From Heptranchias perlo (Eukaryota): a stretch of DNA of 64,000 bases. A program made the translations under genes and the position numbers. Where the stretch lies: contig NC_090348.1 of the NCBI RefSeq assembly GCF_035084215.1, positions 25,854,001-25,918,000 of the forward strand, given 5' to 3'. Under the pieces are notes generated by a model. That model was not told where the DNA came from, searched no databases, and saw only the letters and a program-made list of their open reading frames with translations. Below, in pieces: positions 2,351 to 63,447 of this stretch (positions are counted from its first letter, which is position 1; the number at the start of each line of letters is the position of its first letter).

Positions 2351-3212
2351 CTGGGAGAAAAAAATCAATTAAAAACAAAAATTTCAAGAATAAAGTAACA
2401 AGCACTTGAACTATTAACATCATATTTACATTAAATGCCTATTGTACAAAAAAAGCTTAAAAAGAACAATTATTTTATGCAATGTTTCATTGAGATGTTC
2501 ATCTATTTGCATATTTCTGATAAAACATGCTCTTTATTTAGAAAAATAAATAGATAAGGTGAAAATCTCTTCTCTCACGCTCTCCTCTCACAGCCACCTG
2601 AAAGGGTTGACTTTAAATGAGTTTGGGACAGTCTTAACCCAGTTCCTGATAGTCATGATCTAAAAATTAAAAGAAATTGGCAATCTCACTCAGAGTGGTT
2701 TTAAGAATGGCTGGGGCAGAAAGTGCAAAAATTTCTAAGGGGTTGTTTATCATGAAGGTGGAGAGAAGGCATGTTGTGGAGCAGAAAAGATTAAACTTTA
2801 CGCTGAATTTAGCCCATGGTTTACTCATGGGCTAAATTATTGGCGCTGATACTGGATAAGAAATGTAGAAAAAGTGTTTAATTTCCCAGAACTAACATTC
2901 ATCACCTTGCTTAGCATAAAAATATTCTCAAACTAAAAAACAATATCTAACAAAGAATTTAGAATAGCGTTTTCAAATAGTGCATGCAATATTTAATTTC
3001 AACAAATAAGTTATTTCAAAAAAGCAGCTATGAATGAAATTTGGTCAAATAGGCCAAGTAGTAAAATTCAAACATACACAAAACCTATTTAAACAATTCT
3101 GTTTATAAAGTTAAACATTTTCATAACAATTGTATTCTCTGCTAAATCATATTTTCAACTACACTAGATTAAAATAAAAAGCTAATAACAATCACATTGA
3201 AAGGGTGCTTAC

Positions 3213-3302
3213 TGAACCTGCTGCGCATCGCAAGTAGTCCATTTCATCAGGAAATACATTTCCCAGATAAACTGAAAAGCCAGCAACTATCAGAAGGCAA
3301 CT
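3213..3302 (-). CDS. MLC1: MLC1 coding exon 2 ([30 protein letters not shown])
   Basis: 90 nt, ttacag acceptor, gtaagc donor. Near-identical to human [30 protein letters not shown]. Confidence 0.96.
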
Positions 3303-3802
3303 CTGTAACACAATTATTTTTCATAATACTGTAGTACCTCACTGTGACACTGATATCACATCACCTCTGATATACATTGATTATAGCTACTGTGCTAATA
3401 GAGAAACAATATAAAACATCCTGTAACAGGCTTCTTGCTGTAACACATTGCTCCCAAAATCTAAATGAAAAACATAGCACCTACAAGATTTATATTACAA
3501 AACATTTTTGCAGAACAAAATCTTATTACTGCATTAAAGCTTATTTCCCCCTTTAGGAATTGTTAGATGCTTTACTATGACTATTATTGCCTAACCTATT
3601 ACTTCTTTCTGATACATCAAATAATAAAGCCTTCATACATGACTTATAAACTGCAATTCCACTTCCTATGTCAACTTTTCTTGGTAAAGTATATATAAAA
3701 TGTCAAATTCACAGATGAGCATTACTTTGAGATTTGAAAACAATAGTTTGCTCTTAGTATTGTTTCAATTTACAAAAACAAGAATACCATGGGTACATTT
3801 AC

Positions 3803-3982
3803 CCCAATCATCAGACTGTAGATCCATTCCCTGTGATGAAAACAAGGATGAAATTTTCTATCTAGCTGAAGTTCACTGGATTTAAAGTCCGTGGTGTAAC
3901 TTCCATTGTCCTGTTTTCCCCGTTCCAATGTAGACATTTTGTCATAGCTAAACTCTTCTTTGTAATTATCTTCCTTGGTCAT
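3803..3982 (-). CDS. MLC1: MLC1 first coding exon (MTKEDNYKEEFSYDKMSTLERGKQD...WIYSLMIG)
   Basis: 180 nt from ATG to gtaaat donor. Resembles human [24 protein letters not shown]...WVFSVLMG. An upstream AG acceptor at 3988-3987, with pyrimidine tract and GACTAAC branch-like motif, implies a non-coding exon further 5'. Confidence 0.95.
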
Positions 3983-5889
3983 TTTCCTTTATGGTACAAC
4001 AGAAAGACGTTAGTCACAGGCATGTGATAGTTCATGACAAGAAAATAAATATTTGTTTCAAAGGAAAACTCACTAGTTTTGATGAGCAAAAATGCAAGTG
4101 ACAGCAGACTCGTTGTTGTGCAGCAGCTCGCTGTACTCATGCAAAAAGCTCTAGAAGATTTTACAGTGCAGTGAGCTTCCTTTGAAAAGTTTGCTCATCA
4201 ACTTTGGCTTTGGGCATAATCTATTCAAGTTGCGAACAAAGCCGCAGCTAAGAAACAGTGAATTAAAGCCAGGAGAGTGGAGTGCATCCTGAATTTAAAT
4301 GAGCAGAAAAGGCTAGAACAGGACCTCTACTAAATGTATTCCACCCAACGGTTTACTTTTTCTAAACTTGTGAATACACAAATTTAATGTAGAAGGAAAC
4401 CATAGGACAGAAGAAAGACAAGTCTGTTTAGCCATGTTGAATTATATGTTTTCGCAGTTTAAGTGTGGCTATACTGCCTGAGAAACATGATTATAGTTGT
4501 TTTGCTCTGTGTGTTTTGGCTACAAAATGGTCACACATGCAAGGCACATCTTTGTTGAACACTATGGTGATTAATGCCCATATAGAGAAAGACAAAAGCA
4601 TGGATTACTTTGGAATTTTTTAACCATTTAGCAAATGCTATTTGAAAATGTTCTCTTGAATGTTGTTCTGATAGAAAAGCACTTTCTATGTATTTTTCAC
4701 CAGCAGACCTAAGAAATCTCTTCACTTAAATAAATAGGTCTTCCATTGAAACAGTTAGTGCTTTGAGAATATCATCTTAAATACTGGAAATACCAATGAT
4801 GTGCTTCTTTTCTAAGCACTACTTGGAAACATGGTCCAAATTACAGGAAGACTTGAAATAAATTATATACATTTTGAAGCACCAAAGATACGGACTACAT
4901 TATCTGGATAAGTATGTGGTTGAGAATTGGACTGGAGGTTTTAGGGACACGTATTGACTGAGATAATCAAATACACCATGGGATATAATGATTCCTGTGC
5001 TACTGGCACTTATATTAGTGATACTCATGATGCTGCTGGGGGGCGGTCATCTGTGGAGGGTATTTGATCAAGTTTGAATAATGGGGCTGCATTGATGGAT
5101 AGTACAGTGTTTTGCTTGATTGCCATTAGGAATCAAGGAATGTGTTTTTAGAACTTTCTCCAAACTGATTAAATTGGTGGGGTAAAGAGTTCAAGACATG
5201 AAGATTGTAGATGGTTAACAACAATACTGTGGGTTGTGTATGAGTTCATTTAGCTTTCAGTAGCAGAAAAAATGTTATAAAATGGCTGACAGGAATAATT
5301 CTTGTAATATTGCACTCTGAATCTTTCAATAAAGTAGAAGAATCATACAAAATATTATCTAGATTTCATGGAAAGAACATTGTTTTACTTTTCACATACA
5401 CAAGTGCACATTCAGGAATAAGCACATTAACATGGGTCCTTGCTGTGTGTGTTCCCACAATTATTATTTTGCCCTTCTGTGTATTTCTAACAAATAGCAA
5501 GACAAATGGTTTGGTCAAAATTGCAGCCATTGCCACAACATGTGCACAAGATGAAAGAGGATGCAATTCAGGTTTCAGGCCATCTTAAAGTTTTTAACTT
5601 ATTGAAACAAACTTACCCATGCTATATATTATATATTTTGGCAATTTATTGGTAGCTGTAAATAAATAGCAAGGGAGACACATTAGAAAAAGCAGTAAAA
5701 AATCTATTTTATTTGTTTAAGCCATTCTGTATCCAATTAGTTATCAATTTATGGCAAATATAATACTCATGCAACTCACACTTCCCCATCTGAAGGAGCA
5801 GATGCATATTTGTTCCCAGGCTGCTTCAAATATTGTTCTTAAGTTAACTGCCAGAAAGTACATAATAACTTCATGTTATATTAGCCACG

Positions 5890-6500
5890 AAGGAAGAGAC
5901 TGGGAAGGGTGACCGAAAGTTTGGTTAAAGCATTGTGTGTTAAAAAAGTTTTTAAAAGGTGGAGATAGAGAAGTAATGAGGCAGAGGGGCTTAGGGAAGG
6001 ATTCCCAGAGATCTGGGCTGAGGAGGCTGAAAGTGATGTCACCGATGGTGGGGCTAAGGAATGTGGGTCAGTGGACCAGAATTTGCAGGATGGGATACAA
6101 GCCATGGAGGGATTTGAAGATGAGGATGAGATTTAAAATTTAATGTGTTGGAGGACAAGAACCACTGTAGGTCAGTGAGGACAGTGAATGATTGGTGAGC
6201 AGGAATTAATGTGGGACAGGATACATGTATGATACGTACATGAGTTTGTTTCAGTTGGAATTTATGGAAGATGGGAGGCTCGAAGGGAGAGTATTGGAGT
6301 AATCTACACTGGAGGTGACAAAAGCAAGTAGAATGGTTTCAGCGGTAGAAGGGTTGAGGTAGGGGATGAGGCGGGTGATGTTGCAGAGATAAGAATAGGT
6401 ATTCCTGGTGGATGATAGGTTATGGAATTTAAAGCTCAGCTCAACTTTGAACAGGATGACAAGGTTACATGTAGTCCAATTCAGCCTCAGCGAGTGGCTA
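5890..6500 (-). mobile_element. L2-clade LINE 3' fragment
   Basis: Minus-strand translation RLIPYLNPSTAETILLAFVTSSVDYSN is typical of the L2 ORF2 C-terminus; degenerate. Confidence 0.7.
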
Positions 6501-6650
6501 GGAAAGCAAGATTGAGTCAATGGTAAGAAAAATAATAGCTCCTTTGGCACTATAACTCACGCAAGAACAGCCTTGGTGAACCACCCACAAATTTTTCATC
6601 CACCCCATGACAAATGTTCCTCCCAATTTTACAACTTCAAATTTAACATT

Positions 6651-9600
6651 TACATAGAATTACATAGAATGTACAGCACAGAAATAAGCCATTCGGCCCA
6701 ACAGGTCCATGCCAGTGTTTGTGCTTCACATGAGCAGCCTCCCTCCCTACTTCATCTAACCCTATCAGCACATCCTTCTATTCCTTTCTCCCTCATGTGT
6801 TTATCTAAGCATCCCCTTAAATGCATCTATATTAGTTGCCTCAACTACTCCTTGTGGTAGCGAGTTCCACATTCTAACCACTCTCTGGATAAAGAAGTTT
6901 CTCCTGAATTCCCTATTGGATTTATTACTGACTATTTTATATTTATGGCCCCGAGTTCTGCTCTCCCTCGCAACGTTTCCTGATGGGTATAGCCTCTCAA
7001 TTCTGGTATCATCCAAGTAAATCTTTTTTGCAACTTCTCCAGTGCCTCTTTTGTAATATGGAGACCAGAACTGACCACAGTACTCCAAGTGTGGTATAAC
7101 CAAAGTTCTAAAAAAAATTAACATAACTGCTCTGCTTTTCAATTCTATCCCTCTAGAAATGAACCCCAGTGCTCGGTTTGCTATTTTTATGGCCTTATTA
7201 ACCTGCGTCGCTACTTTTAGTGATTTGTGTATCTGTACCCCCAGATCCCTCTGCTCTTCTACCCCAATTAGACATTTATTATCCAAGCAGTATGTGACCC
7301 CCTTATTCATCCTACCAAAATGTAATATCTCACACTTGTCTATATTGAAATTCATTTACTAATTACACTCTGCAAGTTTATTAATGTCTTCCTGTATTTT
7401 GTCCTCGGTATTAACTATACCCCCAATTTGTTGTGGTCCGCAAATTTTGAAATTCTACTTCCAATTCCTGAGTCCAAATTGTTTATGTAAATGGTGAACA
7501 ACAGTGGTCCCAGCACTGATCCTTATGGAACACCACTTCTACCTTTTGCCAGTCTGAGTAACTACCTTTAACCCGTACTCTGTTTTCTGTTTTGTAGCCA
7601 GCTTGCTATCCATTCTGCTACTTGTCCCCTGACTCCACATGCTCTGACCTTGGTCATGAGTGTGCTATGCGGCACCTTACCAAAGGCCTTTTGAAAATCC
7701 AAATATATTACATCTACTCCATTACCCATGTCTACCCCTTCTGTTACTTCTTCAAAGAATTCAGTAAGGTTGGTCAAGCATGACTTTCCCTTTTGAAATC
7801 CATGCAGACTATTCTTCATTATATTTTCAGTTTCTAGATTTTTTTCTATTACACCTTTGAGTAAGGATTCCATTATCTTTCCTACCACCGACACTAAGCT
7901 AATTGGTCTATAGTTCCCTGGATTGGTTCTATCTCCTTTTTTAAATATAGGAATCACATTAGCTGTCCGCCAGTTCTCTGGCACTATTCCCTTTTCTAAT
8001 GAATTTTTATATATATATATGTAATAGTGCCTCTGCTATCTCCTCCCTAACTTCTTCAAATATGCCCGGATGCAATCCATCCGGACCAGGGGTTTTATCC
8101 TCTCTAAGTTTGATTAGTTTATCAATTATCTCCCCCCTTTCTATGTTAAATGTCTTTATATCTTTTTTGATCTCTTCTTCTCATGTTATGCCCACCATGT
8201 TAGTTTCCCTGGTAAATATTGAGGCAAAGTAATTATTTAATATTTCTGCCATTTCGCTGTCATTACCCGTGACTTTATCGTGTGTATTCCTTAGTGGTCC
8301 TATCCCTATCCTGATTTTTCTTTTTTTATCTATATATCTGTAGAATACTTTACTATTTCTTTATATATTCCTTAATAATTTAGTTTTGTATTTTCTCTTT
8401 GCCTTCCTAATTTTTTTTTTAAACTTCTTTCTTAACCTTTCGTATTCCCTTTTGTCATCCTCTCCTTTGTTGTCTATGTACATTGGTATGCCTTTTTCTT
8501 TAGTTTCAATTTTGCCCTTATTTCTTTATTCATCCGTGGTGTATTATTACTGGCAAGTTTGTTCTTGCTTTTTAGTGGAATATATTTCTCCTGGGCTCTA
8601 ATGATCACTGTTTTAAATGTTTTTCGCTGCTGTTCTATTTCTTTGTTCATCAGTAAATTTTTCCAGTTTATTTTCCCTAGTTCCATTCTCATCCCCTGAA
8701 AATCAGCTTTTTTCCAATTTATTACTTTGATCTTTGTCTTACTTATATCCTTCTCAATCTTTATCTTAAATATTATTATGATGTGGTCACTATTGCCTAG
8801 ATGTTCCCCTACGCTTACTTCTCTTATCTGTTCTGGTTCTTTTCCTATTATTAGATCCAGCAGTGCTTCCTTTCTTGTTGGGCTTTTTACATACTGGGTA
8901 AGAAAAGAGTCCTGCACACGTTGTAAAATCTTCATTCCCTGTACCCCTCTACCTACCTCTTCTTGACAGTTTATTTGTGGATAGTTAAAATCTCCCATGA
9001 TTATTATTCTATATCCTTTACTCATTTCAAATATTTGCTTACATATTTCTTCCTCCACCTCCTTTCCACTATTAGGTAGTTTGTAGTATACCCCTATTAG
9101 CATGATCAATCCCTTCTCATCTTTTATCTCAATCCATATGGATTCCGTTTCTATCCTTCTGTTAGTTATGACCCTTTTTTCTACTATATTATGAGTAATT
9201 AGTGCAGCTACTCCACACCACCAGCTCCCCCCACCCCCACCGCCGCCTTCTTCCTTCCCTATCCTTTCTGATTATGTTATAGCCTGCAGTATTTAGTTGC
9301 CAGCCCTGTTCCATTTATTCCTACTACATCTGGATCCTCACTGCAGATTATTGCCTCCAGTTCCCTGGTTTTAATTTGGATGCTGTGTGCATTGCTGTAC
9401 AGGCAGTTTAATTCATCGTTAATAATTGTTCCTTTTACTTTATTTTTAAACAGTCCTTTTGTACTTCTGTTTTATAACTGTATTTGTTCCTTGACCATTT
9501 ATGTTATCTTTATTCTTTACTCTGGTCTGACCTTTACACTCATCTCCTGTTTCTTTTATCTTTAAGCTTTTGTTATTGCTACCAGATCCTTCCCCCCATC

Positions 9601-25184: not shown

Positions 25185-26200
25185 TTGTTAAGGGTAGCTA
25201 CTCAGAATGGCAAAAGGTGGGACGTGGTGTTCCACAGGGATCGGTACCGGGACCACAAATTACATCAACGATTTGGATTCGGGAATCAGAGTACAATTTC
25301 AAAATTTGCAGACGACACGAAATTGGGAGGTGTAGTTAATACTAAGGAAGAATGCGTCAAAATGCAAGAGGACGTTAATAAACTTGCAGAAAGGGCATGT
25401 AATTGGCAAATGAATTTCAATATAGATAAGTGTGAGGTGGTGCATTTTGGTAGGAAAAATAAGGAGGCCACATATTGCTTGGATAATAAGAGTCTAAATG
25501 GGCAAGAGGAGCAAAGGGATCTCGGAACAGGTACACAAATCATTAAAAGTAGTGATGCAGGTTAATAAGGCCATAAAAAAGGCAAGTCACGCACTGGGGT
25601 TCATTTCTAGAGGGATAGAATTGAAAAGCAGAAAAGTTATGTTTAACTTGTAAAGAACCTTGGTTAGACCACACTTGGAGTACTGTGAACAGTTCTGGTT
25701 TCCATATTATAAAAAGGATATAGAGGCGCTGGAGAAGGTGCAAAAAAGATAAACAAGGGTGATACCAGAACTGAGGATATATTTATCAGGAAAGACTAAA
25801 CCCGCTGGGGCTTTTTTCTCTAGAAAAGAGAAGGCTGAGTGGTGACCTGATGGAGATCATTAAATTAGTGAAAGGGTTTGATAGGGTAGATGTAGAGAAA
25901 ATGTCCCCACTTGTGGGGACTCCAAAACCATAGGTCATAAATATAAGATAGTGACTTATAAATTCTATATGGAATTTACCCAAAGGCTGGTAAGAATGTG
26001 GAACACACTACCGTTAGGAATAATTGAGGCAAATAACATAGATGCATTTAAGGGGAAGCTAGATAAGCACATGAGGGAGAAAGGAATAGAAGGGTATGCT
26101 GATAGGGGTAGATGAAGTAGGGAAGGAGGAGACTTGTGGAGCATAAACGTCGGCATAGACCAGTTGGGCCGAATGGCCTGTTTCTGCGCTGTAGACTCAA
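25185..26200 (+). mobile_element. CR1 LINE 3' portion
   Basis: ISKFADDTKLGG RT motif, [11 protein letters not shown] segment and CR1 3' UTR; frameshifted. Sequence is close to the 6651-7560 copy. Confidence 0.9.
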
Positions 26201-26214
26201 TATTACATTGAGTT

Positions 26215-28790
26215 ATTTGGTTAGAGTTAAGAAATAGTAGAGGTGCCATTACACTATTGGGTGTATTTTATAGGCCACCAACTAGTGGGAAGGATATAGA
26301 GGAACAAATTTGCAGGGAAATTAGAGAGAGGTGCAAAAGCTATAGAGTATTGATAATGGGGGACTGCAACTATCCTAATATAGACTGGGATAATAATATG
26401 AGGGCAAAGAGGGGAAGGAATTTTTGAAATGTGTTCAGGATAACTTTCTTGACCAGTACGTTTCCAGCCCAACGAGGAAGGAGGCATTGCTGGACTTAGT
26501 TCTAGAGAATGAGGCGGGCCAAGTGGAGCAAGTGTCAGTGGGGGAGCGATTATAGTATCATAAGGTTTAGAATAGCTATGGAAAAGAACACTGACCACTC
26601 TAGAGTAAAAATACTCAATTGGCGGAGGGCCAATTTCAATGGGATGAGAACAGATCTGGTCCGGGTAAATTGGAATCTAAGATTGGCAGGCAAAACTGTA
26701 ATTGAACAGTCGGCGACCTTCTTCAAAGAGGAGATGGTTCAGGTTCAGTCTAGGCACAGTGCAACGAGGGAGAAAGCCAGAGCTCCATGGATGACACAAG
26801 AGATAGTGAGTAAGATGAAATGGAAAAAAAGGGCCGTATGACAGATTTCAGGTTGATAACACAAGTGAGAACCAGGCAGAATATAGAAAGGTCAGAGGGG
26901 AAATGAAAAAGGAAATAAGAGGGGCAAAGAGAGAGTATGAGAATAAGTATGAGTATGCGGCCAACATTGAAGGGAATCCAAAAGTCTTCTACAGGCGTGT
27001 AAACAGGTAGTAAGAGGAGGGGTGGGGCCGATTAGGGACCATAAAGGAGATGTACTCATGGAGGCAGAGGGGATGGCCGAGGTACTAAATGAGTACTTTG
27101 CATCTGTCTTTACCAAGGAAGAAGATGCTGCCAGAGTCTCAGTAAGGGAAGATATAGTTGAGATACTGGATGGGCCAAAAATTGATAAAGAAGAGGTACT
27201 TGAAAGGCTAGCTGTACTTTTAAAGTAGATAAGTTACCCGGTCCGGATGGGATGCATCCTAGGTTGCTGAGGGAAGTAAGGATGGAAATTGCGGAGGTAC
27301 TGGCCATAATCTTCCAAACATCCGTAAATACGGGGGTGGTGCCAGAGGACTGGAGAATTGCAAATATTACATCCTTGTTCAAAAAAGGGTGTAAGGATAA
27401 ACCCAGCAACTACAGGCCAGTCAATTTAACCTCAGTGGTGGGGAAACTTTTAGAAAGGAAAATCCAGGAGAGAATTAACAGTCACTTGGGCGAGTGTGGA
27501 TTGATTGGGGAAAGCCAGCACGGATTTGTTAAAGGCAAATCGTGTTTAACTAACTTGATAGTTTTTTGATGAGTTAACAGAGAGGTAAATAAGGGCAATG
27601 CAGGTGATGTGTATATGGACGTACAAAAGGCGTTTGATAAAGTGCCGCATGGTAGGCTTATCAATATTGCGGCCCATGGAATAAAGGGGGCAGTAGCAAC
27701 GGGGATATAGAGTTGGCTAAGTGACAGGAAACAGAGTAGTGGTGAACAGTTGTTTTTCGGACTGGAGGGAAGTGTACAGTGGTGTTCCCCAGGGGTCGGT
27801 GCTGGGACCACTGCTTTTCTTCATATGTCTTAATGACTTGGACTTGGGGGTATAGGGCACAATTTCAAAATTTGCAGATGACACAAAACTTGGAAGGGTA
27901 GTAAATAGTGAGGAGGATAATGATAGACTTCAAGGGGATATAGACAGGCAGGTGGCATGGGCGGACACGTGGCAGATGAAATTTAACACAGTAAAATGTG
28001 AAGTGATACATTTCAGTAGGAAGACCGAGGAGAGGCAATATAAACTAGAGGACACAATTCTAAAAGGGGTACAGGAACAGAGAGATCTGGGGGTATATGT
28101 GCACAAATCGTTGAAGGTGGCAGGGCAGGTTGAGAAAGCAGTTTAAAAAAATGTGGGATCCTGGGCTTTATAAATAGAGCCCTAGAGTACAAATGTATGG
28201 AAGCCATGACGATCCTTTGTAAAACACTAGTTCGGCTACAACTGGAGTATTGTGTCCAGTTCTGGGCACCGCGCTTTAGGAAAGATGTGAAGGCCTTAGA
28301 GAGGTGCAGAAGAGATTTACTGGAATGATTCCAGGGATGAGGGACTTTAGTTAAGTGGATAGACTGGAGAAGCTGGGGTTGTTCTCCTTGGAACAGAGAC
28401 GGTTGCGGGGAGATTTGGTAGAGATATTCAAAATCATGAAGGATCTAGACAGTAGATAGAGAGAAACTGTTCCCATTGGCGGAAGGGTCAAGAACCAGAG
28501 GATATAGACTTACGGTGTGTGGCAAACTAGCAAAGGTGACGTGGAAAAACTTTTTTTATTCAGCGAGTGGTTAGGATCTGGAATGCGCTGCCCGAGGGGG
28601 TGGTGGAGGCAGATTCAATCATGGCCTTCAAAAGGGATCTGGATAAGTACTTGAAAGGAAAAAATTTGCAGGGCTACGGGGAAAGGGCGGGGGAGTGGGA
28701 CTAGCTGGATTGCTCTTGCATAGAGCCAGCGCAGACTCAATGGACCGAATGGCCTCCTTCCGTGCTGAACCTTTCTATGATTCTATGTAA
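26215..28790 (+). mobile_element. CR1 LINE, most of ORF2 plus 3' UTR (second subfamily)
   Basis: Endonuclease remnant, [37 protein letters not shown] and KFADDTKL motifs, tail CTATGATTCTATG; multiple stops. Confidence 0.92.
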
Positions 28791-30216: not shown

Positions 30217-30349
30217 CATCGTTCACCTGAGGAAGGAGGTAGCCTCCGAAAGCTTGTGAATTTAAAATAAAATTGCTGGACTATAACTTGGTGTTGTAAA
30301 ATTGTTTACAATTGTCAACCCCAGTCCATCACCGGCATCGCCACATCAT
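30217..30349 (+). mobile_element. Penelope-like pseudo-LTR end
   Basis: Nearly identical to 40490-40618, the 3' end of the Penelope-like element. Confidence 0.85.
30222..30260 (+). ncRNA. Minimal type I hammerhead ribozyme motif (PLE-associated)
   Basis: TTCAC-CTGAGGA-A-GGAGG-TAG-CCTCC-GAAA-GC-TT-GTGAA: stem I (TTCAC/GTGAA), CUGANGA core, 5-bp stem II, GAAA, and a palindromic loopless stem III. Confidence 0.8.
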
Positions 30350-37000: not shown

Positions 37001-37192
37001 AATAGTAAATCTAAAGATTTGCTTCCTTGTATTGATTCACCAAAAAAAGGGAAGTTTTGCCTCCTGTTGAATTGAGCTGTATTTCAGATGAAGATTACCC
37101 AGTTCAATGGAATGAAGATAATGTAAAAGTACAATAAGAAAAAACTTGCAATTTCCAATAATATAACATTTTGCAATTTGGCTGTTTTTCAG

Positions 37193-37339
37193 TTTATCAG
37201 TTCCTTCAGTGACAAACAAAGAGCTTGAGCAAATTGACTTAGAGTTGTTCGCTAACAAAGGAGGATTGGAAGTTACAAGGAAGATTCATTTTGGCACCAT
37301 CAAGCAGGGAGAGAAGAAAGACTTGATGGTGTGGATTGA
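37193..37339 (+). CDS. MOV10L1: MOV10L1 coding exon 6 (..LFANKGGLEVTRKIHFGTIKQGEKKDLMVWIE)
   Basis: tttttcag acceptor, gtaagt donor, phase 2/2. Resembles human [32 protein letters not shown]. Confidence 0.93.
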
Positions 37340-37674
37340 GTAAGTTTATATGAAATACAGTATTCAGCATAGTGCAGTTTGTATGTGTGCAGCTGAATTA
37401 CATTTTAGTGTAGCTGGCATACAGATTCCATGTATTGATATTCTGTTTGAGTGGTTTGACTAAAAGAATAAAACAATGCAACTATTTCATTTGGTAATCC
37501 TCATACTCTTTTTTAAAAGATTTAAGGAGTAAGTTTAGATGTTGTCTTGGTGGCATTGAGGGCCTTTAGATGCAAAAGTGGATTGAATGGAAGCTTCAGA
37601 GTGAACAAATGATCAACACTTCAGTGCAGTCACCCGTTGATCACTCTTCAATGCAGCCCAATGTAGTAGGAGTT

Positions 37675-38377
37675 GGGTAAATTTTAACAGGGAGCCGGGA
37701 AGAGAGCGGTTGGGGTGGGGGACGATTTCCTGACGGGAAACCTGGAAATTTGGGTTTCCCGGACGTCCTTACAATTTTGATGTAAGAACGTCTTTCAGTT
37801 TTTTTTTTCCCCAGTAGGTTTCCCGCCCTACAGCCGGCAGGCTGGCTGTGAGTCAGACTGACGAGCAGCCAGGGAGCGGATGCCAGCAGGTAAGTCTTAG
37901 ATCGGGGGGGGGGTGCGGGTGGTTGGTCGGTCATTGGGGAGAGTCATCCGTGTAGACAGTCATCAGTGGGGTCGGTCATCGGGCTCAGTCATGGGGGGGG
38001 TCGGTCAGTCACGTGTGTGAGATCGCGACAGGTAAGCTTGTTGGGCCTGGCAGAAACTCTCCTGCTCCTCCTGGCCCACAAACAGTGCTAAAAAGGCACT
38101 TACCTTTAATCCGGGCCTTCTCGCCTCCTCTTACATGGCGAGAATCAGAAGGCCCAGGAATCCCAGCCCCTACGAGTTGAAAATAAAAAACCTATTAAAA
38201 TGGAGGCCCGCAGCCTCCTTAAAAGATTTTACTGGCTGACTCGCCTCTTGAGAGCAGGTTCGTCACCCATCCCTCGACCCGCCTCCGTTAAACCGGAAGT
38301 GGGCGGGTTGGGGTCGGGTTTTACTCTTTTTTACAATTTTTACCTTCCCACCCATTCGTGAGGTTAAAATTTATCCC
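37675..38377. mobile_element. Non-autonomous DNA transposon (MITE, PIF/Harbinger-like)
   Basis: Imperfect TIRs GGGTAAATTTTAAC / GTTAAAATTTATCCC; interior colinear with 52097-52851. Confidence 0.75.
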
Positions 38378-38849
38378 AATTTGTCCACTAACCCAAAAAA
38401 AGTAAGCCAAAAAAATGTCTTTAGGTCTTGTGAGCAGAACTGTGAAATGCTACCCCTGTAGGTATTGCCTCAGGAGGTATCACCCAGAATTATTTTCTCT
38501 AAGAGAACAAAACACTAACCTTTTTGGTACAGGTAAAAGAGATCACAATATTCTAGCCTTTCCTCTGATATTGCTCAGGGTTATTCAAAGTCAGGGAGAA
38601 GACAGACCAGAATCTAATGTTTCCCAAAAACTCAAGTGCCATTACATGTGCATAGATATGAACTTACAGCATCTTATGAGGACCACAGTTGATGGGCTAG
38701 TGCAATCCAAACCAATTGAGTGAAGTAGTGCTTAATGCAGCTCACTTGTGCTGGAACCAGTACCATAACTGCATTACTTTGGAACATGCTTCCCTATCTT
38801 ACTGCCTTTCTAATCTCTCTTCTGACAATGCTATTGATATTACCTGTGA

Positions 38850-39055
38850 ATAGGAACAGGAGCAGGCCATTCAGCCCCTCGAGCCTGTTTTTCTATTTAG
38901 TGCGATCATGGCCGATCTGTATCCTAACTCCATCCACCTATCTTGGTTCCATGTCCCTTAATACCCCTGGCTAGCAAAAATCTATGGATCTCCAATTTAG
39001 ATTTTTTAATTCAGCTAGCATCTACTGCTTTTGCGTGAAGTGTTTCCTAGAATTT
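38850..39055 (-). mobile_element. CR1 3' end fragment
   Basis: AGGAGCAGGCCATTCAGCCCCTCGAGCCTG is the reverse complement of the CR1 3' UTR seen at ~63390-63440. Confidence 0.75.
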
Positions 39056-39708
39056 GGTCCAACATAAGCTCGTGTATTTTCTGATTCACCCCTCTCCCCT
39101 TCCCCGCCCCCCCCCCCCCCCCTTATAAACTATAACATCCAGTGATCGTTGAGTTGCCCAAATTGTGCCTTTTTAGCTTTTGGTCTCCACCATAACAGCA
39201 TAATTTAATCAGTCTGTAAGAACTGCTGAGGTACAGCCACCAATCACAATGATGGAATTTGCTCTTAAGGGGACGGGTATCAAAGTTTGAAATTCCTTTT
39301 GGTTTTATTGTTGTCTGGACTTTTTAACAGCTAAATTTTTGGCAGCTATTAAATTATCCTCATTTTAATGAGGAATGATAATTACATGTTATGAGGTACT
39401 GCGGAAAAATCTGATGGTCTGCACAGGTCATATTATACTATACATCCCTTCATGCAGCCCACTGCAGTGATATTGCTAATGATCTGCACTCCTTGTACAC
39501 TTGCAGATTTTTATACTAATATGTTGACCGTGGTGTCGGTATGTTATGGAATAGCGGATTTCAGTAGCATTGTTAGATTCAAGTCAGAAGATCCTGGTGT
39601 TGCTTGGGGAAAGAAATGAAAGGCAAGAAAGAAGAACTTGGCCAAACAGTTGAATGTTGTAAACGATTTTACAACACCAAGTTATAGTCCAACAATTTTA
39701 TTTTAAAA

Positions 39709-39747
39709 TTCACAAGCTTTCGGAGGCTTCCTCCTTCCTCAGGTGAA
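39709..39747 (-). ncRNA. Minimal hammerhead ribozyme motif (antisense to MOV10L1)
   Basis: Reverse complement reads TTCAC CTGAGGA A GGAGG AAG CCTCC GAAA GC TT GTGAA; all stems intact. Confidence 0.8.
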
Positions 39748-40490
39748 TGTCAAGAAATCCTCGAACCTCTCACATTTATAAATCACAGAACAATATCTGG
39801 TGATTACAGATAGTCTTTTCAACTGCCCGTTGCCAAGGCAACCAAAGTGTTCAGACAGATAGGTGTTACCTACAGGGCCACCGAATATACAAACGGTGAG
39901 AACAAAAAAAAACAGAGAGAGAGAGAGGCAGAAACATCCGGAAGGAAAAGAGAGCAATTTACCCGTTATATTAAAAACAGATAACTTTTGTTCGCTGGTG
40001 GGGTTACGTGTAGTGTGACATGAACCCAAGATCCCGGTTGAGGCCGTCCTCATGGGTGCGGAACTTGGCTATCAATTTCTGCTCGATGATTTTGCGTTGT
40101 CGTGTGTCTCGAAGGGTAAGTGTACTCCAAGGCAGCCTTCGAGACACACGACAACGCAAAATCATCGAGCAGAAATTGATGGCCAAGTTCCGCACCCATG
40201 AGGACGGCCTCAACCGGGATCTTGGGTTCATGTCACGCTACACGTAACCCCACCAGCGAACAAAAGTTATCTATTTTTAATATAACGGGTCAATTGCTGT
40301 CTTTTCCTTCCGGATGTTTCTGCCTCTCTTTTTTGTTCTGGCCATTTGTATATTCGGTGGCCCTGTAGGTAACACCTATCTGTCTGAACACTTTGGTTGC
40401 CTTGGCAACGGGCAGTTGAAAAGACTACCTGTAATCACCAGATATTGTTCTGTGATTTATAAATGCGAGAGGTTCGAGGATTTCTTGACA

Positions 40491-40529
40491 TTCACCTGAG
40501 GAAGGACGAAGCCTCCGAAAGCTTGTGAA
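40491..40529 (+). ncRNA. Minimal hammerhead ribozyme motif with one stem II mismatch
   Basis: TTCAC CTGAGGA A GGACG AAG CCTCC GAAA GC TT GTGAA; a G>C change gives a C-C mismatch in stem II. Confidence 0.7.
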
Positions 40530-40792
40530 TTTTAAAATAAAATTGTTGGACTATAACTTGGTGTTGTAAAATTGTTTACAATTGTCAACCCCAGTCCATC
40601 ACCGGCATCTCCACATCAAAACAGTTGAATGATATAGGATGGGTTTTTAGAAATGCTACGATTCTGGAATCTAAAGGTCTTGACTCCTAATTAAATGTTT
40701 GTGGCTTTTCTCAGCTCTGAAAGTAACGAAGGGGATGGTGTACGTTGCCATTTTATTTATTTTGCGTATTTTATCTGTGATTTTGTTTTCAG

Positions 40793-41350
40793 GAACAAAG
40801 GAAAAGAGACGCATAGCCTTCTGAACTACAAGCTGGCAGGATGGGAGAGAGAAAATCAGTTCTTGTTGGGGTCACCACAAGTAGTTCTAACTCCATTTGT
40901 CTCTGAAAACACAGCCATACAACAACAGAGCCCCACGGGATTTGTGTCTAACTGTAGAGTGTCTCGATCCCAGCCATCATATGTGGGCCTCAGTTCTTCC
41001 CTTCCCAGAATATCAGTTCAGCCAGACTCTAAGTCCCCCTATGTGACTCTTGATCATACGGATGTACCTACACCTCGTGAGATAACTTCATATCAACAAG
41101 ATGTTAGACACAGTTCACAAAGCACTCAAGATAAATTGACAAAGAACCTTCCATTAGTCTCAGCAAGTTCTGTAAATCAGCTAAGTTGTCCACAAGCTTG
41201 TAATGATACTGATGTATTTGAAAGAGAAAGGAAAATCCAAAAATGTGAAAAGGTGAAACAAAAGCTCAATACAAATGCAGAAATTGGTGAAACAGCACTG
41301 CAAATACCACCTAATGGAAAAGCCTACGTAAACCTAGTGTGTGACGCAAA
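40793..41350 (+). CDS. MOV10L1: MOV10L1 coding exon 7 (ENKGKETHSLLNYKLAGWERENQF...IPPNGKAYVNLVCDAK)
   Basis: 558-nt open exon, ttttcag acceptor, gtaaga donor, phase 2/2. Both ends resemble human NKGDIPQNLVSCKLAGWDK and VPPGGKTFIVVICDGK. Confidence 0.92.
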
Positions 41351-41619
41351 GTAAGAGTCTTATTATTGAAAAGAATTTATTATTGAAAAATGTATTGACA
41401 TGCAGATCTGTGCCTGTAGCTTTAGAGGTAACTAGCACTAATTTTAATGTTTAAACTCTATTGAGATTTAAGTATTAGATATGATCAAAATTTATGTACA
41501 CATAAAGTGAAAGTCTCATCTAATTTTGCCGGAATGTTCTCATTCCTTTTTTGGTTTTTAAAAGCCTGTTCAGCCAACTGAAAGTAGATCAAGGAATTCC
41601 TGATCTCTAGTTTCATTGT

Positions 41620-42240
41620 GGTTGACCACTCCATTCTCCTCCACTGCCTTCCTCCTGCTGTTCACCTCTTTACCACCACGCTTGCAGGCTTCCATTCCCA
41701 CTTGTCCCAATGTACCCAGTATATCCTAGAATCATACAATGCAGAAGAAGGCCATTCAGCCCATCGTGCCTGTGCCGGTTCTGAAAAAGCTTTCCAAATA
41801 GTCTCACTCCCCTGCTCTTTCCCCATATCCCTGCAAATGTTTCCTTTTTAAGTATTTATCCATTTCCCTTTTGAAAGTTACTATTGCATCTGCTTCCACC
41901 ACTCTTTCAGACAATGCATTCCAGATCATAACTCGCTGAGTTTTAAAAAAAAATCTCTCCTCATCTTCCCCCTGGCTTTTTTGCCAATTATCTTAAATCT
42001 GTGTCCAGTGGTTACTGACCCTCCTGCCAGTGGAAACGGTTTCTCCTGTGATGGTTTCTCCTCCCGTGCCTACACTTCGATTTTCAATGTGCCATCTTTA
42101 TCCCTTCCTATTCTTCATGAACACGCTGCCTCTCGGAAATAGCCCATGTAGGGGATCAGTTTCCACGTATATGTTGATGACACTCAGCTGTACCTTTCAA
42201 CCATCGCCCATGACTCGGCAACTGTTGCTGCACTGGCCTC
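41620..42240. mobile_element. L2-like RT fragment (+) interrupted by a CR1 3' end (-, ~41727-42045)
   Basis: VDHSILLH.L before and FH.YVDDTQLY after the insert. The insert is a reverse-complement CR1 3' UTR (TAGAATCATAC...GGCCATTCAGCCCATCG). Confidence 0.7.
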
Positions 42241-42852
42241 TCAACATGTTGGGGCTGAAATTCTACTCCCATGCACTAGCACCAGGTACAGAGGAAGTGG
42301 AAAACCAAGGCCAGCGTCAGTGTGTTCAATTTGCATTGGCCCTGGCAGGAACTGGCGAAGCATTAGATTTGTACACCCCCTGTAGAGCAAATCTCACCTT
42401 GTGCATTTGGGGACATGTCCTTACTGCCCCACAGTTTGCGATACGGATATCATTGCAGTATGCCAATAGTTTATATTTTAGGAAAGGTTAGCTCAGGTAA
42501 ATGCAAAGTCAGCAATACAAATTATCATAGCCCCAGGGTTTCCATTTTTCATAATTCATTTCCCAATAAACTTCTGATCAAGTATGTAGAGTTAATTTTT
42601 TAGCATATCACAACAATATTTTATTCAAATCTGGAATATAATTGATTTCCGTGGTATGAATGTCAGCATCATAAATTATTGTTAATGGCGGAAGAGTTAA
42701 AATCACCTCAGGAGATGTTCGATATTACATTGTATTTTTAAAATAGTATTTATTTTACTTGCAATACACATTGCCTGAAACAAATTCCAGTAATTCACAT
42801 TTGTTTTCTTTCCGATGATTACCTTTTTAATGTAATTTTGACCTTATTACAG

Positions 42853-43053
42853 AAATCCTGGTCGTTGCAAAGAGCTTCTCTTGCTTTATTTTAATGGCTT
42901 TGTGATGGGACGTTACGTGGAGGTGGATGTGATAAGTGATGAGGAATCTCTCCTTGCACCTAGATCCCAATATCATTCCAGACAAGCCAAATCTCTTCAA
43001 ACAGATCAAAAGGAAACTAACTTCATGGTTGTGAGAGTGCAAAATCCTACACG
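42853..43053 (+). CDS. MOV10L1: MOV10L1 coding exon 8 ([37 protein letters not shown]...)
   Basis: AG/GT boundaries, phase 2/2. Resembles human [37 protein letters not shown]. Confidence 0.96.
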
Positions 43054-54324: not shown

Positions 54325-54471
54325 ATTCACTTTACTTTACCAGACAGTCGGATTTTGGCTTCTGCTCCCTCCAACAGCGCTGCTGACCTTCTGTGTTTAC
54401 GTTTACATGAAAGCAATGTGCTAAAGCAGGGAGACATGGTGCGAGTTAATGCCACGTGCAGATCTGAAGAG
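54325..54471 (+). CDS. MOV10L1: MOV10L1 coding exon 17 ([30 protein letters not shown]...[11 protein letters not shown])
   Basis: AG/GT boundaries, phase 0/0. Motif Ia (APSNSAAD). Confidence 0.97.
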
Positions 54472-54955: not shown

Positions 54956-55124
54956 TATCATTAGTACTTGTTAACAAAGGTGCTCTCCCATCTGACAGCT
55001 GTTGCAACTCTTCATTCAGATCTTCCTGTACACCACACCACCAACTCACTCTGGCTTTCCACTTGATCTTTTTAATCAGTGTGTCTACTCTGACCCTTGG
55101 TCTTCTCCCCATTTTGAGCTTTGC

Positions 55125-55174
55125 ATTCACTTTACTTTACCAGACAGTCAGATTTTGGCTTCAGCTCCATCCAA
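55125..55174 (+). repeat. Intronic partial duplicate of the first 50 nt of MOV10L1 exon 17
   Basis: 47 of 50 positions identical to 54325-54374; no AG acceptor in front. Confidence 0.9.
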
Positions 55175-59347: not shown

Positions 59348-59984
59348 GTATAATGAAGCATGCAGTATTAAATATTCTGTATTGAATTTCTATTAGATCA
59401 TAATTATGCAAAGTGCTTCTATGTGATGCATCTTTTTCTCCAGGGTGAGGTATAATTAATCATCATTGTAAGAACAAACATAATTTATTTTGAATTTTCA
59501 GAAATGTGTGGTGTGAAAATGAGTTCTATCTTGTGTTTTTTTAAAACATTAAAATGTACTTATTTTCTAATATAAAATTGTAAATTTGTCACAGTATAGC
59601 TATAGTAAAGCATTTGAAAACGTGTTTATGAAACCTAGCGTTGCAATAATTTAATGTTCTGTTAGGGAATAAAGTAACTTCTTTTAGACTGGTGCTTGGC
59701 AGTTGCCTTTTGGTTATGGCAAACCCAAAAAGATCCACAGAAAAGAGGAATTGATTGTCTTCACTTCAGATACTTGGCTCCTTGTAGATACTCTTTTTAT
59801 ACAGAAAAGGCTGAATTCTGCTTTTTGGATGCTGGAAAAATAAGATTTTCTGGCCCTTTAAAGACTTCTTGGCCTATGCTGATGTAATAGTTTATTTGTG
59901 CAACATCCTTTCTTCTCCCTACCCAATCAACCACCAGTTTCTTCCTTTTTGACAGTCTGCATCTCTTAGTGAATGATTCTCTTA

Positions 59985-60033
59985 CAAATAAAACTTGTTG
60001 GACTATAACCTGGTGTTGTAAGATTCCTTACAT
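59985..60033 (+). mobile_element. Tiny Penelope-like pseudo-LTR tail fragment
   Basis: AAATAAAACTTGTTGGACTATAACCTGGTGTTGTAA matches 40535-40570. Confidence 0.65.
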
Positions 60034-62482: not shown

Positions 62483-62549
62483 GTGAGTCTTGTCCTTTTC
62501 TTATTTACAGTAGCCAAATACTATGGTCATGTAGATCCCCCTCCCACAT

Positions 62550-63447
62550 GAGGACATAAAAAACCTACAGGGGGATATAGACAGGCTGGGTGAGTGGGCG
62601 GAGATTTGGCAGATGCAATACAATATTGGAAAATGTGAGGTTATGCACTTTGGCAGGAAAAATCAGAGAGCAAGTTATTATCTTAATGGCAAGAAACTGG
62701 AAAGTACTGCAGTACAAAGGGATCTGGGGGTCCTAGTGCAAGAAAATAAAAAAGTTAGTATGCAGGTGCAGCAGGTGATCAAGAAGGCCAACGGAATGTT
62801 GACTTTTATTGCTCGGGGGATAGAATATAAAAACAGGGAGGTATTGCTGCAGTTATATAAGGTATTGGTGAGACCGCACCTGGAATACTGCATACAGTTT
62901 TGGTCTCCATACTTAAGAAAAGACATACTTGCTCTCGAGGCAGTACAAAGAAGGTTCACTCGGTTAATCCCGGGGATGAGGGGGCGGACATATGAGGAGA
63001 GGTTGAGTAGATTGGGACTCTACTCATTGGAGTTCAGAAGAACGAGAGGCGATCTTATTGAAACATACAAAATTGTGAAGGGGCTTGATCGGGTGGATGC
63101 GGTGAGGATGTTCCCAAGGATGGGTGAAACTAGAACTAGGGGGCATAATCTTAGAATAAGGGGCTGCTCTTTCAAAACTGAGATGAGGAGAAACTTCTTC
63201 ACTCAGAGGGTAGTAGGTCTGTGGAATTTGCTGCCCCAGGAAGCTGTGGAAGCTACATCATTAAATAAATTTAAAACAGAAATCGACAGTTTCTTAGAAG
63301 TAAAGGGAATTAGGGGTTACGGGGAGCGGGCAGGAAATTGGACATGAATTTAGATTTGAGATTAGGATCAGATCAGCCATGATCTTATTGAATGGCGGAG
63401 CAGGCTCAAGGGGCCGATTGGCCTACTCCTGCTCCTATTTCTTATGT
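62550..63447 (+). mobile_element. Young 5'-truncated CR1 LINE
   Basis: Uninterrupted 244-aa ORF2 C-terminal frame (62613-63347) and an intact 3' UTR ending TTCTTATGT. Confidence 0.92.

What the first reader, a model, noticed from the sequence alone, without database searches (positions are those of the whole stretch)
39644..40631. Penelope-like palindrome makes a ~450-bp dsRNA hairpin inside the piRNA helicase gene
Seen: highly similar inverted arms around a 20-nt loop (40116-40135), a 13-bp TSD, one hammerhead per arm, and the insertion ending 174 nt upstream of the large exon 7. Known: inverted pLTR arrangements and hammerheads are typical of Penelope-like elements, and long hairpins are Dicer and ADAR substrates. 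Inference: germline transcription of MOV10L1 would produce anti-Penelope dsRNA, linking expression of a TE-silencing gene to a TE-derived small-RNA source. The hairpin would also sequester the sense hammerhead, so the two folds are mutually exclusive.
Basis: partly seen in the sequence, partly recalled or inferred. Interest (0 to 1): 0.7.

Follow-up and report, generated by a model that had tools for sequence, protein, structure and literature searches.

The report
Ordinary Penelope mirror insertion in MOV10L1
A jumping gene landed as a mirror-image pair inside an intron of a shark gene whose mammalian counterpart silences transposons; the RNA there is predicted to fold into a long hairpin, but the genome holds hundreds of equally tight mirror-image copies and the gene is still spliced normally across this one, so it is most likely a harmless passenger rather than a built-in silencing switch.

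Summary
Two inverted arms (39657-40115, 40136-40589; 12 substitutions, one 13-nt gap) flank a 20-nt loop inside a 13-bp target duplication in intron 6 of a shark MOV10L1 gene. Each arm carries a hammerhead core, and exon 7 starts 174 nt downstream. It is a 5'-truncated, head-to-head insertion of an endonuclease-bearing Penelope-like element. The proposed feedback link is not supported. The family has 50,503 exact tail matches. Two sampled centre windows alone hold 485 tight palindromes, and an estimated 4,600 loci have both arms this long. Of 39 sampled sister copies, 23 have the same layout. The site is empty in two other species, the arms are decaying without compensation, and an RNA-derived contig splices exons 6-7-8 across it. 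The sense hammerhead is predicted to be masked (97% paired) and has a private stem II mutation. No small-RNA data were available, so a minor siRNA output is untested. By-product: in 13 of 23 sister pairs the tail-less arm is the longer one, which excludes simple cDNA fold-back and favours two reverse transcripts joined head to head. The scan reported that model before from short stubs in this genome.

The parts
39644..39656 (+). Left copy of the 13-bp target-site duplication
   Evidence: single copy at the empty site of two other organisms
39657..40115 (-). Left arm: inverted, 5'-truncated, tail-less copy of the element's 3' end (reference positions 2705-3170 of 3207)
39709..39747 (-). Hammerhead motif of the left arm, with the family-type stem II; antisense to the MOV10L1 transcript
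40114..40115 (.). Head-to-head junction; a 2-nt overlap (GG) belongs to both arms
   Evidence: gap -2
40116..40135 (+). 20-nt loop, which is the 5' overhang of the right arm (endonuclease-coding sequence); it holds a donor-like GG|GTAAGT
40114..40618 (+). Right arm: sense, 5'-truncated copy (reference 2683-3207) with the last codons of the element's ORF, the pLTR and the tail
   Evidence: translation matches the C-terminus of the 794-aa open frame of sister copy L037
40491..40529 (+). Sense hammerhead motif; private G>C at 40507 in stem II; predicted to be paired with the left arm
   Evidence: G in 69 of 69 other copies; this stem II in 0 of 113 other motifs; pairing 0.97
40584..40618 (+). About 35-nt one-sided tail
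40619..40631 (+). Right copy of the target-site duplication
37191..37339 (+). MOV10L1 exon 6
   Evidence: X5 record 9
40793..41350 (+). MOV10L1 exon 7 (558 nt), spliced to exons 6 and 8 in an RNA-derived contig

Best explanation
This is a 962-bp head-to-head insertion of a very abundant Penelope-like retrotransposon in intron 6 of shark MOV10L1, likely built at insertion from two short reverse transcripts primed from the two cut DNA strands and likely a neutral passenger that is removed with the intron. Shown: the anatomy, the 13-bp duplication, the empty site in two other species, the family size, the same layout in most sampled sister copies, and exon 6-7-8 splicing across the insertion. Inferred: the endonuclease cut the two strands 13 nt apart. 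One 3' end primed at the end of the tail and the other about 35 nt upstream, which would correspond to the two start sites found in vitro for the anole element. Both copies stopped within 22 nt of each other and were joined through a 2-nt overlap. Predicted: the nascent pre-mRNA folds into a ~450-bp hairpin that masks the sense hammerhead and may be A-to-I edited, but it adds little to the family's dsRNA pool, which would be fed by thousands of similar loci.
For: Abundance: 50,503 exact tail 24-mers and 66,106 pre-tail 24-mers, with backwards controls at 0; that is one tail per 64 kb. Tight palindromes: 317 with centres in the window's 200-nt zone (the window's own included) and 168 with longer arms. 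Of 20 fetched from the 317, 15 fold into 395 or more pairs (-772 to -939 kcal/mol), 14 of those 15 have arms at least 97% alike against 94.6% here, and 17 of 20 have a 10-15-bp TSD. In the first 100 listed anchor places, 20 neighbour pairs are head-to-head within 3.1 kb, against 3, 3 and 1 for the other orientations; this extrapolates to about 4,600 loci (2,900-6,800). Sister copies: 23 of 39 have a tail-less inverted partner, 20 of the 23 with an 11-15-bp TSD around the whole unit and 21 of 23 ending at reference 3170-3176. The tail-less arm is the longer in 13 of 23, and in 11 of these with a direct junction and a TSD, so neither arm can be a copy of the other's cDNA. Arms of one locus share 30 rare non-CpG variants against 2.6 expected from other loci (24 pairs, summed by hand), so both arms usually come from one source. 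No care of the hairpin: the 12 substitutions give 4 G-U pairs and 8 mismatches, none compensated, and the 8 transitions split 4 G-U to 4 A-C as neutral decay predicts. Splicing: X5 record 9 joins 37339 to 40793 and 41350 to 42853 with no other letters, and the acceptor zone is not predicted to pair with the element (0.001). Literature: the layout is typical (PMC8557442 and PMC3846280, passages); two start sites flank the tail and both strands are extended (PMC11167929, parts 1-2 of 4); endo-siRNAs were found only in mouse among oocytes of 12 vertebrates including zebrafish (PMC10964541, passages).
Against: No gonad small-RNA or raw RNA reads were available, so neutrality rests on indirect evidence. 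A tight hairpin of this length in one given 43-60-kb gene has only a 0.6-0.9% chance from the two centre windows counted (6-8% for any loop up to 3 kb). It becomes ordinary only when a whole pathway of genes is allowed as target (0.2-4 expected hits for an assumed 1.5-3 Mb). The insertion appears homozygous in the one sequenced individual (weak: flank contigs enter the element by only 28 and 23 letters). One spliced contig shows that exon 7 can be included, not how often. Penelope inverted repeats do give siRNAs in Drosophila (PMC3681739, passages). The samples favour young copies: top 40 of 1,144 candidates by identity, and exact anchors. Two of 18 pairs differ in an 8-nt marker, so some pairs have two sources or were changed later. 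Shared variants could also come from gene conversion between arms.
Confidence: 0.85

Rival explanations
1. Locus-specific feedback: germline transcription of MOV10L1 makes a hairpin that Dicer cuts into anti-Penelope siRNAs, coupling the silencing gene to a silencing signal.
For: A predicted 450-bp stem with a 137-bp unbroken helix. The gene is transcribed in the sampled animal. MOV10L1 is a testis piRNA helicase in mammals (PMC12497819, passages). In transformed D. melanogaster, siRNAs match the inverted regions of Penelope (PMC3681739, passages).
Against: Hundreds to thousands of equal or better hairpins exist. The site is empty in two other species and the decay is uncompensated. The fly siRNAs were reported as unable to silence Penelope efficiently (PMC3681739). 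Endo-siRNAs were not found in zebrafish or most mammalian oocytes (PMC10964541). The hairpin is intronic and nuclear whereas Dicer acts mainly in the cytoplasm (established knowledge, recalled).
Confidence: 0.04
2. The insertion is not a small-RNA source but mildly alters MOV10L1 splicing or RNA level. The hairpin shortens intron 6 in effect and presents a donor-like GG|GTAAGT in its loop, 174 nt from the exon 7 acceptor.
For: The element fills 28% of a 3,453-nt intron. The loop motif reads GTAAGT here and in 2 of 68 other copies, against GTAAGC in 66, and is predicted partly unpaired. The public protein model of this gene covers only exons 6-13.
Against: An exact exon 6-7-8 contig exists. The polypyrimidine tract and acceptor lie outside the fold. 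The short public model starts upstream of the insertion and ends far downstream, so its ends do not point at the insertion.
Confidence: 0.08
3. Same neutral verdict but a different origin: the palindrome arose by self-priming (fold-back of one cDNA, or of an antisense template as proposed in PMC3846280), not by two primed reverse transcripts.
For: At this locus the tailed arm is the longer, the loop is only 20 nt, the junction shares 2 nt, and both arms share two rare variants (40164, 40442). All of this fits fold-back.
Against: In 13 of 23 sister pairs the tail-less arm is the longer, so the tailed arm holds sequence that its partner lacks and the reverse. The tail-less end is nearly fixed (21 of 23), as expected from a defined second start site (PMC11167929). 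The antisense-template version was not tested directly.
Confidence: 0.15

Closest known systems
Endonuclease-bearing Penelope-like elements with an inverted 5'-truncated copy, a one-sided 30-40-bp tail and a TSD (PMC8557442; Pen2a_Av and relatives, PMC3846280; passages read)
   Same: Head-to-head inverted copy, tail on one side only, TSD around the whole unit, hammerhead motif in the pLTR, parent ORF with RT and C-terminal GIY-YIG.
   Different: Here both arms are cut to about 460-500 nt and nearly equal, so the unit is a tight palindrome without an ORF. The family is far more abundant (over 50,000 tails) than the rotifer families.
Anolis Poseidon (PAc) in vitro (PMC11167929; parts 1-2 of 4 read)
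   Same: Two reverse-transcription start sites flank the tail and both target strands are cut and extended, which matches the two fixed 3' ends seen here. Its hammerhead is dispensable for insertion and needs protein.
   Different: That work does not show joined, inverted products. Clade placement of the shark family was not tested by a tree.
Penelope inverted-repeat siRNAs in transformed Drosophila melanogaster (PMC3681739; passages read)
   Same: Inverted Penelope copies can give dsRNA and siRNAs matching the inverted part.
   Different: Flies have a dedicated siRNA pathway (recalled), and those siRNAs silenced poorly. No small-RNA evidence exists for this shark locus.
Intronic inverted repeats as ADAR substrates, such as inverted Alu pairs (recalled, no call)
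   Same: A long imperfect intramolecular duplex in a pre-mRNA intron, one of very many.
   Different: A single insertion event made both arms here. Editing was not measurable.

Membership tests
EN+ Penelope-like element | Single ORF with RT and C-terminal GIY-YIG endonuclease | tested here: met
   Sister copy L037 has a 794-aa open frame with RVT_1 E 2.8e-7 and GIY-YIG E 4.2e-4, 21 bits, just under the 22.6 cut-off. Atlas first hits at 0.98 are RT/GIY-YIG clusters. The window arm encodes the same C-terminus.
EN+ Penelope-like element | Inverted 5'-truncated copy joined head to head | tested here: met
   23 of 39 sister copies alike
EN+ Penelope-like element | 30-40-bp tail on one side only | tested here: met
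   Left arm ends at reference 3170, right arm at 3207
EN+ Penelope-like element | Target-site duplication | tested here: met
   13 bp; single copy at the empty site in X10 and X13
EN+ Penelope-like element | Hammerhead motif in the pLTR | tested here: met
   Core motif in both arms with a 5-bp stem I and a palindromic AAGCTT stem III; no Rfam hammerhead hit
EN+ Penelope-like element | Hammerhead self-cleavage | not testable with these tools
   The sense copy has a private stem II change and is predicted masked
Penelope/Poseidon clade | RT phylogeny and lack of the Zn-finger linker of Neptune/Nematis | not tested
   No tree was built and the linker was not examined
Hairpin endo-siRNA locus | Long intramolecular duplex in a transcribed region | tested here: met
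   Predicted fold; the host gene is spliced across it
Hairpin endo-siRNA locus | Dicer-dependent 21-22-nt reads from both arms | not testable with these tools
   No small-RNA or raw-read run was offered
Hairpin endo-siRNA locus | Stem kept by conservation or compensatory change | tested here: not met
   Absent in two other organisms; 0 of 12 substitutions compensated

The most novel reading that the evidence does not exclude
The two-ended insertion chemistry of this family plants thousands of long self-complementary copies, so the element builds its own dsRNA trigger. The copy in MOV10L1 is one that germ cells transcribe exactly when piRNA processing is on, and it has been kept as a source of anti-Penelope small RNAs.
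Probability: 0.04. Interest if true: 0.7.

Novelty: new member of a known kind. Interest (0 to 1): 0.18.

Why it matters
As a single locus it matters little: it is one of hundreds of equally tight Penelope-like palindromes, and it happens to lie in a gene with an evocative name. The census has some value for specialists, because how Penelope-like elements form inverted copies is described as still undefined (PMC8557442). Long pairs in which the tail-less arm is the longer exclude simple cDNA fold-back, and shared rare variants point to one source for both arms. If the feedback reading were true, it would be a transposon-built link between a piRNA gene's expression and an siRNA source in a vertebrate germline; one literature search (listing only) showed no such case.

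Tried and rejected
Rfam at gathering score gave 0 hits in the window. The E-value scan gave only microRNA models at the hairpin centre, all below their gathering scores and rejected as generic hairpin matches. No listed run is on record as RNA and none is small RNA. Three RNA-like contig sets had no cover on unique bins of intron 6, and X8 and X9 had none on the left flank; these blanks are not used as evidence. Summed contig depth on the element in the RNA-like runs was far above that on MOV10L1 exons, but it pools all copies and is not used to rank expression. A>G rows also occur in the DNA run or in single family contigs, so they are not editing evidence. A third palindrome count gave only 8, which first looked like a gap in junction positions; it was rejected because that anchor marks a subfamily of 1,007 matches, giving 0.8% against 1.4% for the main anchor (317 of 23,187). 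The pairing probabilities failed numerically (all zero) and were recomputed. A second MOV10L1 copy was sought with one helicase exon: only weaker hits at 62% and 46%. Literature searches for shark small RNAs, for a transposon feedback insertion in a piRNA gene and for this genus showed nothing on this locus in their listings. Subscription papers are not covered and no supplements were read.

Full report
Observation. The palindrome is real. The arms are 39657-40115 and 40136-40589, with 12 substitutions and one 13-nt gap in a microsatellite. The loop is 20 nt. The predicted fold is a single hairpin at -843.8 kcal/mol, with a longest unbroken helix of 137 bp. The 13-bp direct repeat AAACAGTTGAATG flanks the unit. 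Contigs of two other organisms pass from the left flank through one copy of that motif into right-flank-like sequence, so the repeat is a true target duplication and the insertion is absent there (compared by eye). Each arm has a hammerhead core; Rfam does not score them.

Host gene. The exon-7 translation is 100% identical to a protein that its sources name Mov10l1-like of Heptranchias perlo, and 58-70% identical to MOV10L1 of four other sharks. tblastn places 20 exon blocks on the + strand from 19678 to 62476. The element lies in intron 6 (37340-40792) and fills 28% of it. One contig of run X5 (RNA is the tool's guess; same sample as the DNA runs) joins 37339 to 40793 and 41350 to 42853 with no differences, so exons 6, 7 and 8 are spliced correctly across the palindrome in at least some transcripts. 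The acceptor zone is not predicted to pair with the element.

What the element is. A sister copy, L037, has a 794-aa open frame with an RT match and a weak C-terminal GIY-YIG match. The right arm covers its positions 2683-3207 and the left arm 2705-3170 in inverted orientation. So the loop is the longer arm's 5' overhang, the junction shares 2 nt, and only the right arm has the ~35-nt tail. This is the layout described as typical for endonuclease-bearing Penelope-like elements (PMC8557442, passages; PMC3846280, passages).

How common it is. Exact 24-mers from the tail and from just before it occur 50,503 and 66,106 times, with backwards controls at 0. I fetched 7 kb around all 39 other loci listed (the top 40 of 1,144 candidates, so young copies of the same subfamily). 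Of these, 23 have a tail-less inverted partner upstream, 20 of the 23 with an 11-15-bp TSD around the whole unit. A direct count of palindromes centred in the same 200-nt zone gave 317, the window's own included, and a disjoint zone further upstream gave 168. I fetched 20 of the 22 listed on contig C1, leaving out one near-duplicate neighbour and the last entry. Fifteen fold into 395 or more pairs, and 14 of those have arms at least 97% alike, better than the 94.6% here; exact anchors favour young copies. Among the first 100 of 23,187 anchor places, 20 neighbour pairs are head-to-head within 3.1 kb against 3, 3 and 1 for the other orientations, which extrapolates to about 4,600 loci with both arms about 400 nt or longer. 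The chance that a given 43-60-kb gene holds one is 6-8%, or 0.6-0.9% for the tight class counted. Over an assumed 1.5-3 Mb of pathway genes the expectation is 0.2-4 hits. The hit is therefore uncommon for one gene but unremarkable for a scan of the genome.

Signs of function. The 12 substitutions give 4 G-U pairs and 8 mismatches, none compensated; the 8 transitions split evenly, as neutral decay predicts. Each arm differs from the majority of sampled copies at 9 and 7 of 413 sites. The sense hammerhead has a G>C change in stem II seen in 0 of 113 other motifs, and in the full context it is predicted 97% paired to the left arm. For the anole element the hammerhead needs protein and is dispensable for insertion (PMC11167929), and eight of nine tested Xenopus retrozyme dimers did not cleave (bioRxiv 10.64898/2026.07.22.740005, passages). 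Small RNAs could not be examined. Against, endo-siRNAs were found only in mouse among oocytes of 12 vertebrates including zebrafish (PMC10964541, passages). Sharks and testis were not covered there.

How it was made. In 21 of 23 pairs the tail-less arm ends at reference 3170-3176, and the tailed arm ends at 3206-3207 in all. This matches the two reverse-transcription start sites that flank the tail in vitro, where both target strands are cut and extended (PMC11167929). In 13 of 23 pairs the tail-less arm is the longer (11 with a direct junction and a TSD). Neither arm can then be a fold-back copy of the other's cDNA. Junctions overlap by 1-7 nt in 9 of 23 pairs and carry filler or further element pieces in the rest. 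Arms of one locus share 30 rare non-CpG variants against 2.6 expected (24 pairs, hand sums), and agree in an 8-nt marker in 16 of 18 pairs (read by eye). I infer two reverse transcripts from one source, primed from opposite ends of a 13-nt staggered cut and joined head to head. For this locus alone fold-back is not excluded, because its tailed arm is the longer. Gene conversion could also explain shared variants. Earlier notes of this scan reached the same model from short stubs in this genome; they are unchecked notes, not independent support.

Verdict. Observation confirmed; interpretation partly supported. The insertion is an ordinary product of a known kind of element and most likely a neutral passenger (0.85). 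A mild splicing effect (0.08) and a locus-specific siRNA feedback (0.04) are not excluded. Interest 0.18.

Noticed in passing
window 30222-30348 (+): A second, 127-nt tailed copy of the same family lies in MOV10L1 intron 3, in sense, with a paired stem II and no inverted partner in the window. It is an unmasked sense hammerhead motif in the same pre-mRNA.
   Followed up: partly
window 59982-60032 (+): A 51-nt, 88% match to the element's 3' part in intron 18.
   Followed up: no
window 19678-62476: The public protein P0001 for this gene is only 485 aa (exons 6-13), whereas homologues of about 1,230-1,390 aa map to 20 exon blocks; the 19 translated in frame have no stops (exon 7 is open). The public model is probably truncated; one helicase exon found no second close copy.
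   Followed up: partly
window about 55104-55170 (+): A partial near-duplicate of the start of exon 17 (54325-54471) lies in the next intron.
   Followed up: no
window 40114-40121 (+): The loop holds a donor-like GG|GTAAGT; 66 of 68 other copies read GTAAGC. It could act as a cryptic 5' splice site.
   Followed up: partly
L045 4835-5797, L061 5787-5820 (oriented coordinates): Two sister copies have an inverted 5' segment with little or no duplication of the 3' end, resembling LINE-1 twin-priming inversions (label recalled).
   Followed up: no
L019 and L065: The two arms differ in an 8-nt duplication marker, which hints at two source RNAs in one insertion or a later change.
   Followed up: partly
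window 6801-9271, 25185-28146, 62535-63347: Open frames that read like LINE (CR1/L2-type) endonuclease and RT fragments; the label is recalled, not tested.
   Followed up: no
G000:C30:38876164-38876307: A 62% match to a MOV10L1 helicase exon, possibly the paralogue MOV10.
   Followed up: no
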